From: Escherichia phage N15
Sequence record: NC_001901.1
Direction: 5' to 3' (one strand)
Length of the DNA stretch: 46,375 bases
Positions within the stretch are counted from its first letter, which is position 1; each line of letters opens with the position of its first letter. The notes beneath the pieces are model-generated. The model ran no database searches. It was not told the DNA's origin and worked only from the letters and a program-made list of their open reading frames with translations. Below are positions 45,696 to 46,319 of this stretch, piece after piece. Position numbers and translations under genes: made by a program.

Positions 45696-46319
45696 ATGTC
45701 AGAATCTGTAAGCATCAGTCATGTAGCAACGATGTCTAAACCGTTTGGTGTAAACGTCGAATGGAAATGGCCAAATGGCAGCAGCTGGTTTTCCAAGTTG
45801 GAACTGCAATGCCTCCGCGAAGACGGGCGGCTAGTGAAAGAGTGCATATATTATCCGAATACTAGCCATCTTATTTCCGGTCTTAAATGTGGTGAGCGCG
45901 TGCAGGTACGGGTGCGCATCGTTGCAGTGAACGGTTCTACCCGAGACTGGCAGGTTAGTGACTGGATTCAAGGCGAATCATCTGTTGATGCTGGCGATAT
46001 CGTCCAGTGGTTGGAAGACGAAATCCGGAACAGCGAGACGTTTAAAGTATTTCGCGGCCAGTGCTTTATTAACGAAGGAAAGATTGGCAATGGCATCGTT
46101 TCTACGAACTATAACGTGAAGTTGAACATGAGCGACACTGCCAAGCAGCATGGATGTGGATTGTTCGTTGGTATCGATGTGCAGAAGGGCAAGGCGTCAG
46201 GGGCTGAAGGGAAAACATCTGAGCTTAAAAAAGAGATCGACGAATGGATTACAGAGACGATCCATCTGCATTGCCGCCCAGGTGGCATTATCTGGCAGGC
46301 TACAAGGCGCAATCGATAA
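45696..46319 (+). CDS. Orphan J-paralogous protein (FN3-like domain) at the right genome end
   Basis: AAAGGA RBS. VNVEWKWPNGSS...LELQCL...YYPNTSHLISGLKCGERVQVRVRIVAVNGSTRDWQVSDWIQGESS parallels residues of the J-like protein (IRLNWGFPANTGD...TEIQY...YPSSEYIQLGLKAGQEFWYRAQLVDRTGNESGYTDWIRGMS). Confidence 0.7.
   Translation: MSESVSISHVATMSKPFGVNVEWKWPNGSSWFSKLELQCLREDGRLVKECIYYPNTSHLISGLKCGERVQVRVRIVAVNGSTRDWQVSDWIQGESSVDAGDIVQWLEDEIRNSETFKVFRGQCFINEGKIGNGIVSTNYNVKLNMSDTAKQHGCGLFVGIDVQKGKASGAEGKTSELKKEIDEWITETIHLHCRPGGIIWQATRRNR

What the first reader, a model, noticed from the sequence alone, without database searches (positions are those of the whole stretch)
45696..46319. Orphan J-fragment paralogue with a tape-measure-like C-terminus as the last gene before cos
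The 207-aa product aligns with the second FN3 unit and following segment of the J-like protein (W.WP...LE.Q....YP.S....GLK.G.....R.......G..S...DWI.G.S). Its last residues, RPGGIIWQATRRNR, resemble the C-terminus of the tape measure protein (QPGGLIWNATNRR, end of 10358..12874). After cos joining it lies directly upstream of the terminase genes in the late transcript. It could be a decoy or alternative tail-tip component, an assembly factor that competes for the tape-measure docking site, or a recombination relic. The terminal similarity is short (about 13 aa), so chance is not excluded.
Basis: seen in the sequence. Interest (0 to 1): 0.5.

Follow-up and report, generated by a model that had tools for sequence, protein, structure and literature searches.

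The report
N15 gp59: tail-tip mimic accessory gene
The last gene of phage N15 (gp59) is a real, conserved but dispensable-type accessory gene whose protein combines a piece of the tail-tip fibre with the docking end of the tail tape measure, so it probably imitates those parts while tails are built; its actual job has never been tested.

Summary
The window is the whole genome of coliphage N15, and the ORF 45696..46319 is its annotated gp59. Residues 8-136 are homologous to the FNIII-2 domain plus helical shaft of J-type central tail fibres. The last ~30 residues carry the canonical C-terminal helix and PGG-hydrophobic-aromatic motif of lambda-family tape measure proteins. In lambda that segment forms the coiled coil that sits on the gpI plug.

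gp59 is not a fragment of N15's own J and not a relic. It belongs to a large modular family under purifying selection (over 500 clusters; PHROGs 13555, 17079 and others). The family has one conserved C-terminal module and at least six unrelated N-terminal heads. Its genes sit as terminator-flanked cassettes, either between the tail tube and chaperone genes or just upstream of the packaging genes, sometimes beside Tai defence genes.

The phi80 homologue (orf66) lies in a region whose deletion leaves the phage viable.

My best reading (confidence about 0.4) is a late-expressed trimeric mimic that competes at the tail-tip initiator. Rival readings are a decoy, a virion accessory protein, or a decaying copy. 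Function is untested.

The parts
45560..45586 (+). Intrinsic-terminator-like hairpin plus T-run after gene 58 (C5 cytosine methylase, 44531..45541)
   Evidence: 8-bp stem, 6 GC pairs, then CTTTTCC. Gene 58 is absent from the closest N15-like relatives, where the gp59 homologue directly follows the 44230-type gene (L008, L009, L069).
45587..45667 (+). Long, very stable hairpin in the gp59 leader
   Evidence: MFE -44.1 kcal/mol, z=-5.3, 0 of 200 shuffles as stable. Role unknown. Most family members carry a different conserved structured leader at the same place.
45684..45689 (+). Shine-Dalgarno AAAGGA, part of the TCTAAAAGGA box shared by leaders of the whole family
45696..46319 (+). gp59 coding sequence (207 aa plus stop)
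   Evidence: 100% identical to N15 gp59. phrog_13555 E=7e-102. dN/dS below 1.
45717..45980 (+). FN3 domain (aa 8-95), homologous to FNIII-2 of J-type central tail fibres
   Evidence: PF00041 E=0.0025, below cut-off; pLDDT about 88.
45990..46049 (+). Helix (aa 99-118) corresponding to the alpha-helical shaft that follows FNIII-2 in J
   Evidence: Alignment to J 831-854. AF2 helices 99-112 and 114-118. Domain names are from PMC11101478.
46044..46178 (+). Short beta region (aa 117-161), a truncated copy of the Phage_Tail_Tip (PF09327/DUF1983) beta-prism motif GQxFIxxxxIGNGIxSxNYxVKLN..G..H..G
   Evidence: Second HSP to J 981-1008. Full-length relatives pass the PF09327 cut-off. N15 lacks about 60 residues that relatives have.
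46227..46316 (+). C-terminal helix plus RPGGIIWQATRRNR (aa 178-207): tape-measure-end motif
   Evidence: (P195/G196/G197 conserved in at least 90%).
12785..12871 (+). C-terminal 29 residues of the N15 tape measure protein (..YQQVINKSVNDGIARAIQPGGLIWNATNRR), the segment that gp59 resembles
   Evidence: It is homologous in position to lambda gpH 818-849, which docks on gpI.
17538..17903 (+). J-like protein residues 733-854 (FNIII-2 plus start of the helical shaft), the segment that gp59 resembles
18048..18461 (+). J-like protein residues 903-1040, Phage_Tail_Tip domain (PF09327)
   Evidence: E=9.5e-47. Weak gp59 HSP at J 981-1008.
14700..15290 (+). gpI-like tail-tip plug protein (N15 gp20), the inferred docking partner of both the TMP end and the gp59 end
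   Evidence: The phi80 annotation calls its gene 19 'similar to lambda I, N15 gp20'. The partnership is inferred from the lambda structures and was not tested here.
46364..46375 (.). 12-nt cos sequence GGGCGGCGTCCG, also present at 1-12

Best explanation
gp59 is a functional but non-essential accessory ('moron-like') late protein built from tail-tip parts.

Shown here:
- It has an FNIII-2-like domain, a shaft-like helix and a truncated tail-tip beta motif, all homologous to the central fibre J.
- These are followed by a helix and PGG motif homologous to the extreme C-terminus of lambda-family tape measure proteins.

Inferred:
- Like its two templates, it forms a trimer.
- Its C-terminal coiled coil binds the same site on the gpI-like plug (N15 gp20) of the tail-tip initiator that the tape-measure end normally occupies.
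- It would therefore compete with or modulate tape-measure docking, capping a fraction of tip complexes. This could act on its own tips or on those of co-resident lambdoid phages that share this end motif.
- The variable N-terminal head (FN3 in N15) would supply a second, lineage-specific contact.

On this reading it is a mimicry-based player in tail-assembly control or phage-phage conflict, not a building block of the virion.
For: 1. The homology to J and to the TMP end is statistically solid.
2. The matched TMP segment is the part resolved in lambda as a three-helix coiled coil on the gpI trimer. The motif is a hallmark of lambda-family TMP ends.
3. In the family, the PGG motif and the preceding helix are the most conserved C-terminal features. 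At least six unrelated N-terminal heads share the module.
4. The gene faces the same way as the late genes in every locus whose neighbouring genes could be identified: 42 of 80 loci between the tube and G/T chaperone genes, and 27 of 80 upstream of the packaging genes.
5. The layout is cassette-like: terminators flank the gene in HK639 and L025, a nearly identical leader occurs across genera including Aeromonas, and presence or absence varies among N15/phi80-like phages.
6. phi80 orf66, annotated 'similar to N15 gp59', shares the C-terminal half (E=2e-8) and lies in the deletable orf62-66 region. Only the orf64 deletion was reported to lower titre.
7. Purifying selection: dN/dS 0.16-0.57.
8. 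AF2 models the FN3 domain with confidence but the rest poorly as a monomer, as expected for an obligate oligomer.
Against: - No binding, oligomeric state or phenotype has been measured. Multimer modelling was not possible with these tools.
- Most carriers have a TMP with the same kind of end, so a competitor would also interfere with the phage's own tails unless it is dosed or timed.
- The gp59-type end does not covary strictly with the cognate TMP end. Enterobacter prophages keep ..KPGGLLYKR beside four different TMP ends. FSL SP-016 carries a homologue although its TMP (HK97 type) lacks the motif and no homologues of N15's M, L, K and I proteins were found there.
- A phi80 lysogen lacking tai no longer blocks HK106, HK544 or HK578 although orf66 is intact. 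This gives no sign of prophage-level interference.
- N15's own copy has an internal deletion of about 60 residues, and its C-terminal helix scores only 16.8 bits against the family HMM.
Confidence: 0.4

Rival explanations
1. Counter-defence decoy. gp59-family proteins are made late and in excess to soak up host or prophage factors that recognise the central fibre or the tape-measure end. Candidates are Tai-type, Tab-type and ubiquitin-like conjugation systems. This would protect the real tail proteins.
For: - Tai systems select escape mutations in the C-terminal region of J. [quoted passage not shown] These are the two regions copied in the family.
- Tai homologues (27% identity to phi80 TaiEcA, E=1e-15) lie divergently just upstream of the gp59-like gene in FSL SP-016-type, L017 and L041 loci, and two genes away in phi80. 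That is 5 of 19 pre-packaging loci with enough upstream sequence.
- The late orientation matches Ati and anti-Tab.
- FSL SP-016, whose own TMP lacks the motif, still keeps it.
Against: - phi80 lacking ati is strongly self-inhibited by its own TaiEcA although orf66 is intact, so orf66 is not an effective anti-TaiEcA.
- N15 has no Tai or Ati homologue.
- None of 36 tail-module loci have Tai nearby.
- The FN3 domain is more conserved across the family than it is similar to the cognate J, which is not what a decoy of the phage's own J predicts.
- No PADLOC hit.
Confidence: 0.2
2. Non-essential virion accessory protein. A trimeric mini-fibre or decoration attached to the tail tip displays a variable N-terminal head (FN3 in N15), for example for surface adhesion.
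For: - Late orientation, and a position inside the tail gene cluster in 42 of 80 loci.
- FN3/Ig-like decorations are common on phage tails (general knowledge).
- NCBI names relatives 'phage tail tip fiber protein'.
- A non-essential role would fit the phi80 deletion data.
Against: - The conserved end copies a segment that in lambda is buried in the tip lumen and already occupied by three TMP ends.
- Several alternative heads are small non-Ig domains.
- The genes are flanked by terminators and move between two accessory hot spots.
- No proteomic evidence was found.
Confidence: 0.2
3. Assembly helper. The protein transiently occupies the gpI site or templates trimerisation of the J shaft until the chaperone-coated tape measure arrives, raising the yield of correct tails.
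For: The same homologies apply as for the best explanation. The gene is adjacent to the G/T chaperone and TMP genes in most loci.
Against: - The N-terminal heads are interchangeable, and the gene is present or absent among close relatives.
- It is present in a phage with a different tip type.
- It is dispensable in phi80.
Confidence: 0.1
4. N15's copy is a decaying member of the family with little or no remaining function.
For: - An internal deletion of about 60 residues relative to the 260-300 aa relatives.
- PF09327 is no longer detected.
- The C-terminal helix is divergent, scoring 16.8 bits against the family HMM.
- No match of at least about 85% identity in 5,426 complete E. coli genomes.
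Against: - The ORF is intact with a good SD.
- The same 207-aa form occurs at 97% and 94% identity in other isolates.
- dN/dS is 0.40 against the closest longer relative and 0.27 for the FN3 part.
- The PGG motif is retained.
Confidence: 0.1

Closest known systems
Lambda gpJ-type central tail fibre (host specificity protein J): the FNIII-2, alpha-helical shaft and beta-prism (PF09327) segment
   Same: gp59 residues 8-136 align with FNIII-2 and the start of the shaft. The family also carries the PF09327 motif NYxVKLN..G..H.AGM..GVE....F.ADRF.
   Different: It has no hub domains (FNIII-A, Phage-tail_3) and no receptor-binding domain, and is 207 aa against 1061. Identity to the phage's own J is only about 26%, lower than to foreign J proteins.
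C-terminal end of lambda-family tape measure proteins (lambda gpH 818-853, 'gpHC')
   Same: A helix followed by [RQK][PD]GG-hydrophobic-hydrophobic-aromatic and basic residues at the extreme C-terminus. In lambda this segment forms the coiled coil on the gpI trimer.
   Different: Only about 30 residues are shared. gp59 has no TMP_2 or Tape_meas_lam_C domain and no long helical ruler.
phi80 orf66 (PHI80_66, 'similar to N15 gp59'), HK639 gp13, FSL SP-016 SP016_00205
   Same: True homologues sharing the C-terminal module. They occupy the same two genomic slots and the same orientation.
   Different: phi80 orf66 and HK639 gp13 have unrelated N-terminal heads in place of FN3. All are longer than N15 gp59. 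None has an assigned function.
Tai/Ati (tail assembly inhibition and its antidote) and Tab/anti-Tab
   Same: Accessory prophage genes at the hot spot upstream of the packaging module. They act on J's C-terminal region or the TMP's C-terminal region. The antidotes are late genes.
   Different: No sequence similarity to TaiEcA or AtiEcA. gp59 is not divergently transcribed. The phi80 data give no sign that orf66 acts as a defence or as anti-TaiEcA.

Membership tests
PHROG 13555 / 'DUF1983 domain-containing small tail-tip-fibre-like protein' family | Full-length profile match | tested here: met
   phrog_13555 E=7e-102 over residues 1-205. 72 homologous clusters.
PHROG 13555 / DUF1983 small protein family | PF09327 (Phage_Tail_Tip) domain above the Pfam cut-off | tested here: not met
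   Not reported for N15 gp59. Relatives pass: P0030 at 30.9 bits and phi80 orf66 at 23.4 bits, against a cut-off of 22. N15 has a deletion in this region.
J-type central tail fibre / host specificity protein | N-terminal hub domains (FNIII-A_GpJ PF24801, Phage-tail_3 PF13550) | tested here: not met
   Present in the window's J but absent from gp59.
J-type central tail fibre / host specificity protein | FNIII-2 plus helical shaft segment | tested here: met
   E=1e-7 to the phage's own J, 9e-14 to the Enterobacter J, and 9e-14 by profile to PDB 9l9p_S.
J-type central tail fibre / host specificity protein | C-terminal receptor-binding domain | tested here: not met
   The C-terminus is a helix plus the TMP-type motif instead.
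Lambda-family tape measure protein | TMP_2 (PF06791) and Tape_meas_lam_C (PF09718) domains; a ruler several hundred residues long | tested here: not met
   Found in the 838-aa TMP, not in gp59.
Lambda-family tape measure protein | Extreme C-terminal helix plus [PD]GG-hydrophobic-hydrophobic-aromatic end motif | tested here: met
Lambda-family tape measure protein | The C-terminal coiled coil docks on the gpI trimer | not testable with these tools
   Known for lambda gpH. Multimer prediction or binding assays are needed for gp59.
Tai (tail assembly inhibition) defence | Homology to TaiEcA (phi80 orf63) | tested here: not met
   No tblastn or blastp similarity. N15 has no Tai homologue anywhere.
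Tai (tail assembly inhibition) defence | Divergent orientation and expression in the lysogen; blocks tails of invading phages | tested here: not met
   The orientation is the same as the late genes. Expression and activity cannot be tested here. A phi80 lysogen lacking tai is permissive although orf66 is intact.
Ati / anti-Tab type counter-defence | Homology to AtiEcA; binds its cognate inhibitor | tested here: not met
   No similarity to AtiEcA (for the neighbouring ORF). Binding cannot be tested here.
Moron (autonomous accessory cassette in a late operon) | Variable presence, flanking terminator, own promoter, dispensable | tested here: inconclusive
   Variable presence. Terminators flank the cassette in L025 and HK639, and one lies upstream in N15. 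The phi80 region is dispensable. No sigma-70-like promoter was found on the + strand.

The most novel reading that the evidence does not exclude
The gp59 superfamily would be a previously unrecognised class of phage-encoded tail-protein mimics. These would be trimers that fuse a miniature central-fibre shaft to the gpI-docking end of the tape measure, carry swappable N-terminal heads, and travel as cassettes with their own structured leader. They would be used to cap or hijack tail-tip initiators, either of rival lambdoid phages or as decoys against tail-assembly-interference defences. That would add a mimicry-based layer to the Tai/Tab type of conflict.
Probability: 0.25. Interest if true: 0.7.

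Novelty: new variant of a known kind. Interest (0 to 1): 0.5.

Why it matters
Tail assembly has recently emerged as a battleground: Tai, Tab and ubiquitin-like conjugation systems target J and the tape measure. Here is a widespread protein family in enterobacterial and Aeromonas prophages, so far annotated only as 'DUF1983/hypothetical'. It copies the two regions those systems target, including the tape-measure end that plugs into gpI.

If it competes at that site, it would be a natural tool for dissecting how the tape measure docks into the tip initiator. It would also be a new type of assembly-level interference or protection. The question is directly testable, because phi80, N15 and HK639 are tractable phages and a phi80 orf66 deletion was reported to have been made.

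If it proves to be only a dispensable decoration, the finding is of modest interest.

Tried and rejected
1. Recent fragment of N15's own J: rejected. Identity is lower to the phage's own J than to foreign J proteins, and the family is large.
2. Chance resemblance to the TMP end: rejected by the HMM search with a decoy control and by the TMP survey.
3. Strict co-evolution of the gp59 end with the cognate TMP end: not found. The Enterobacter gp59-type end is constant beside four TMP end types. phi80 pairs a W-type end with a Y-type TMP end. N15-type TMPs sit beside many different W-type ends. The partial W/W association can be explained by shared ancestry.
4. Homology to Tai, Ati or any PADLOC defence model: none.
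5. Fold search with the AF2 model returned only generic FN3 domains. The C-terminal half is modelled poorly as a monomer.
6. A PDB sequence search with the 37-column C-terminal profile gave only a non-significant hit to the F2-pyocin TMP end (E=0.15).
7. Literature searches for N15 gp59, gene 59, DUF1983 and AsXd-1 found no functional or proteomic data. The phi80 genome paper was not available.
8. The species-representative genome scan gave only 2 loci. PLSDB gave 6. There was no near match in complete E. coli genomes, and N15 itself is not in the phage collection.
9. The residues of J mutated in Tai escapers could not be retrieved because they appear only in figures. I therefore could not test whether they fall in the part of J copied by gp59.
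Full report
**Identity of the window and the gene**

The ORF at 45696..46319 starts at an ATG seven bases after AAAGGA and encodes 207 residues. It is 100% identical to 'gp59 [Escherichia phage N15]', on a 46,375-bp contig. The window is therefore the complete N15 genome. The 12-nt cos sequence GGGCGGCGTCCG is present at both ends, and the small terminase gene starts at 89 on the same strand. The gene upstream (44531..45541) is a C5 cytosine methylase. 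It is followed by a terminator-like hairpin at 45560-45579 and then by an 80-nt, very stable hairpin at 45587-45667 (z=-5.3).

**Checking the observation: similarity to J**

- BLASTP of gp59 against the window's 1061-aa J-like protein gives E=1e-7, aligning gp59 17-136 with J 733-854. A weak second HSP aligns gp59 117-139 with J 981-1008, inside the Phage_Tail_Tip domain (PF09327, J 903-1040).
- PHROG profiles for 'central tail fiber J' and another tail protein match residues 4-122 (E=3e-9 and 6e-13).
- A profile of 27 family members hits solved J-like fibres: 9l9p_S E=9e-14, the F2-pyocin fibre 25vf_A E=2e-13, and 23gd_D E=1e-7.
- AF2 predicts a confident FN3 sandwich for residues 8-100, followed by a helix.

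In the domain names used for lambda gpJ (hub domains, FNIII-1, FNIII-2, alpha-helical shaft, beta-prism, receptor-binding domain; PMC11101478), gp59 corresponds to FNIII-2, the start of the shaft, and a truncated piece of the prism.

**Checking the observation: similarity to the tape measure end**

- Pairwise BLASTP finds only the extreme C-termini, gp59 178-205 against TMP 810-837, E=0.002.
- In an alignment of 27 homologues, the C-terminal helix and P195-G196-G197 are at least 90% conserved.
- An HMM of the last 42 residues of the family was searched against 14,441 six-frame ORFs from the window and about 85 fetched phage loci. Outside the family it finds only C-termini of tape measure proteins: N15 TMP E=4.6e-7, Enterobacter prophage TMPs 1e-6 to 2e-4.
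- When the HMM is rebuilt without the N15 lineage, the N15 TMP end still scores 29.6 bits (E=3.5e-7). The best hit in a reversed decoy database is E=4.4.
- Among 120 lambda-family TMP C-terminal sequences, essentially every complete C-terminus ends with [RQKS][PD]GG[LIMV][LIFW][WYS]. This includes the lambda type DEIQTQMRDGGLFSGGGR.
- The F2-pyocin TMP in PDB 25vf ends ...ELRPGGLVWR.

Cryo-EM work on lambda shows that gpH residues 818-842/849 form a three-helix coiled coil in the tip lumen that rests on, and contacts, the gpI trimer (PMC10721106, PMC12617516, PMC11101478).

**What the gene is**

gp59 is not a piece of N15's own J. It is less similar to that protein (25.6%, E=4e-7) than to the J proteins of an Enterobacter prophage (32.7%, E=9e-14) or phi80.

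It belongs to a family of 72 protein clusters at full length. A profile of the C-terminal module alone finds 523 clusters. Most are 200-300 aa and named 'DUF1983 domain-containing' or 'phage tail tip fiber protein'. They come from Enterobacter, Salmonella, Citrobacter, Escherichia, Kluyvera and Vibrio, and an Aeromonas phage also carries one.

The typical member has four parts:
- an N-terminal head;
- the motif GQVFIxDAxIGxGIxSxNYSVKLNV..GK.H.AGM..GVEG.QSKV.F.ADRFKV, which is the first half of PF09327;
- about 60 helical residues (..DEMKQAVIDAVRESDLFASLQA..DAQTAS..GLQQA..);
- the end ..AVNDAIRNALKPGG(L/I)(L/I)(Y/W/F)x(R/K).

N15 gp59 lacks about 60 residues of the middle.

The head is interchangeable. 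I found FN3 (N15 type), the phi80 orf66 type (MGHKIITLSG..), MNKDMVLILRDD.. (HK639 gp13), MGEKIIADALD.., MKYLSLQQ.., and at least one more. All sit on C-terminal modules that are 60-80% identical. Several PHROGs (13555, 17079, 16910, 29765, 18217), all listed as 'unknown function', share the module. A preprint reports phage ParB-CTPase-fold proteins fused to DUF1983 that bind ATP; whether that DUF1983 fusion carries this same C-terminal module was not checked.

Codon comparisons of N15 gp59 with six relatives give dN/dS of 0.16-0.57, lowest in the FN3 part. The gene is therefore maintained by selection.

**Genomic context**

All context counts below come from the 80 IMG/VR loci found with the family profile.
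- In 42 loci the gene lies inside the tail module: tube, then the gene, then the G and T chaperones, TMP, M, L, K, I and J. The Enterobacter prophage NZ_CP091500 and phage HK639 (gene 13) have the same arrangement.
- In 27 loci it lies just upstream of the packaging genes, as in N15, phi80 (orf66, annotated 'similar to N15 gp59') and Salmonella phage FSL SP-016.
- In the remaining 11 loci the context could not be assigned.
- In the 69 loci whose context could be assigned, the gene faces the same way as the late genes.

In HK639 the annotators placed terminators on both sides of gene 13. In L025, strong terminator-like hairpins flank the cassette.

Genes that often accompany it:
- a small ORF of PHROG 17483 directly upstream, in 19 of 80 loci and in both contexts;
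- one or two glycosyltransferase-like genes (PHROGs 1579 and 854) downstream, in 10 of the 27 pre-packaging loci;
- a divergently transcribed homologue of TaiEcA upstream, in 5 of the 19 pre-packaging loci that have at least 3 kb of upstream sequence, and in FSL SP-016. In phi80 the gene lies two genes from taiEcA and atiEcA.

N15 itself has no Tai or Ati homologue. Among phages with N15-like tube genes, the pre-cos slot holds many different members of the superfamily or none. This is the behaviour of an accessory, mobile cassette.

**Experimental hints from the literature**

He et al. 2024 (PMC11364771) showed that phi80 orf63 is TaiEcA, a prophage-expressed inhibitor of tail assembly. Its escape mutations map to the C-terminal region of J. 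orf64 is its late-expressed antidote.
- They deleted orf62-66 as a 'non-essential region' and obtained plaque-forming phage.
- They also deleted orf62, 64, 65 and 66 individually, and reported a titre defect only for orf64. The gp59 homologue is thus dispensable for making phi80 particles in the laboratory.
- phi80 lacking ati is self-inhibited although orf66 is intact.
- A phi80 lysogen lacking tai no longer blocks HK106, HK544 or HK578.

So orf66 is neither an effective anti-TaiEcA nor a detectable prophage-level defence against those phages. Separately, Patel et al. [quoted passage not shown]

**Does the gp59 end track its own tape measure?**

Only loosely.
- Enterobacter prophages keep ..ALKPGGLLY(K/N)R beside four TMP end types..KPGGMIYNFSKGR..RKPGTPLWNAVRGKY..RDDGAIGGRFAKK and ..RSDGLLGRQFQTK.
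- phi80 pairs ..CFPGGVIWQQCRR with a TMP ending ..SAGGVLYSRRTQ.
- Phages with the N15-type TMP end (..QPGGLIWNATNRR) carry diverse W-type ends.
- FSL SP-016 has an HK97-type TMP without the motif, and no homologues of N15's M, L, K and I proteins were found there. It still keeps a homologue ending ..QPGGMLWNKRGGY.

The extra 'AT..RR' likeness within N15 is therefore not evidence of co-evolution.

**Interpretation**

The shown facts are the homology to two tail proteins, the conserved C-terminal module, the variable heads, late orientation, cassette behaviour, purifying selection, and dispensability of a homologue. They fit best with a late-made, probably trimeric mimic. Its tape-measure-type coiled coil would engage the gpI-like plug of the tail-tip initiator (N15 gp20, 14700..15290), and so compete with or modulate tape-measure docking. 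The head domain would add a second specificity. The trimer, the binding and the consequence are all inferences, and I put this reading at about 0.4.

The rivals are:
- a decoy for defences that recognise J or the TMP end (0.2). It is attractive because of the Tai neighbourhood, but the phi80 data weaken it;
- a dispensable virion accessory fibre or decoration (0.2). The copied TMP segment is luminal and already occupied, and no proteomics exists;
- an assembly helper (0.1);
- decay of the shortened N15 copy (0.1).

**Novelty**

The gene and its relatives are annotated but uncharacterised. I found no description of the tape-measure-end mimicry, the modular heads or the cassette structure. The parts are all of known kinds, so I rate it as a new variant of a known kind. 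It is of moderate interest and directly testable.

Noticed in passing
window 45587-45667; L025:9890-9995, L088:5242-5347, L170:8700-8805 and about 50 other loci: About 105 nt directly upstream of nearly all gp59-family genes is highly conserved, whatever the N-terminal head, genomic slot or host genus (including Aeromonas phage AsXd-1). The sequence is ..GAAAGTCTTTCAGCTGTGAGCCTGGGCAAACCGTTAACTTTCGGCGGCTTTGCCGTGCGACAGGCTCACGTCTAAAAGGAAA..ATG. RNAalifold predicts a nested hairpin (GTGAGCCTG/CAGGCTCAC) plus an outer helix pairing UCUUU with the Shine-Dalgarno AAAGG; 2 pairs show compensatory changes. No Rfam family matches. The N15 lineage has a different leader with its own very stable 80-nt hairpin (z=-5.3). 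This could be translational control or a recombination boundary.
   Followed up: partly
L088:3664-3769 (phi80 rha/orf62), L010:7915-8020 (KilA-N gene), L017:12044-12149: A variant of the same leader (..CGGGCGGCTTTTCTGTGAGACAGGCTCACTTTCTAAAAGG..) precedes other accessory late-region genes (rha, a KilA-N/ORF11CD3 gene). The element therefore marks several cassettes of this hot spot.
   Followed up: partly
L004:36278-36823 (+) beside 34972-35745 (-); L010/L011/L018 8926-9471; L017; L041: Homologues of the phi80 tail-assembly inhibitor TaiEcA (27% identity, E=1e-15; phrog_5483) lie divergently about 0.5 kb upstream of the gp59-like gene in several Salmonella and Enterobacter prophage lineages. In four of these lineages a 110-aa ORF (phrog_17483) sits between them, in the position that Ati holds in phi80. 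In L041 no such ORF was detected. That ORF also accompanies gp59-like genes inside tail modules, without Tai. It may be a non-homologous antidote or a partner of gp59.
   Followed up: partly
L004:33505-34962 and 32368-33021; L172:1878-3335: In 10 of 27 pre-packaging loci the gp59-like gene is followed by a 485-aa GT2-like glycosyltransferase (phrog_1579; Pfam GT2 E=4e-4, below cut-off). A second 'glucosyltransferase' (phrog_854) often follows. The first is 90% identical between a Salmonella phage and an Aeromonas phage.
   Followed up: no
window 44531-45586: Gene 58 (C5 cytosine DNA methylase) with its terminator is absent from the closest N15-like relatives (L008, L009, L069), where the gp59 homologue directly follows the 44230-type gene. 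It looks like a separate insertion.
   Followed up: no
window 28301-28388 (-), 28414-28489 (-), 19863-20048 (+): Rfam gathering-level matches elsewhere in the genome: C4 antisense RNA (78.8 bits), isrK Hfq-binding RNA (62.4 bits) and STnc100 sRNA (72.5 bits).
   Followed up: no
window 1-12 and 46364-46375: The 12-nt cohesive-end sequence GGGCGGCGTCCG is written at both ends of the window, so the record is terminally redundant by 12 nt.
   Followed up: yes
TMP ends in L026, L044, L043, L172 and others: Lambda-family tape measure ends fall into discrete classes: PGG-x-I-W-NATNRR, PGG-LL-Y, RDGG-LF-SGGGR, RDDGAIGGRF, RSDGLLGRQF and PG(T/S)PLW. These classes are exchanged among otherwise similar Enterobacter prophages. 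This suggests the TMP-end/gpI interface is itself a swappable module.
   Followed up: partly
literature (bioRxiv 10.1101/2025.10.10.680097): Phage proteins that fuse a ParB-CTPase fold to DUF1983 are reported to bind ATP. This may be another head on the same C-terminal module, and it would be a cytoplasmic enzyme-like head rather than a virion decoration.
   Followed up: no
collections: N15 itself is not in the phage collection searched; the only near hit is 137 bp in an Enterobacter phage. The gp59 region has no match of at least about 85% identity in 5,426 complete E. coli genomes. The closest relatives (97%, 94%) come from Enterobacter hormaechei and metagenomes.
   Followed up: yes
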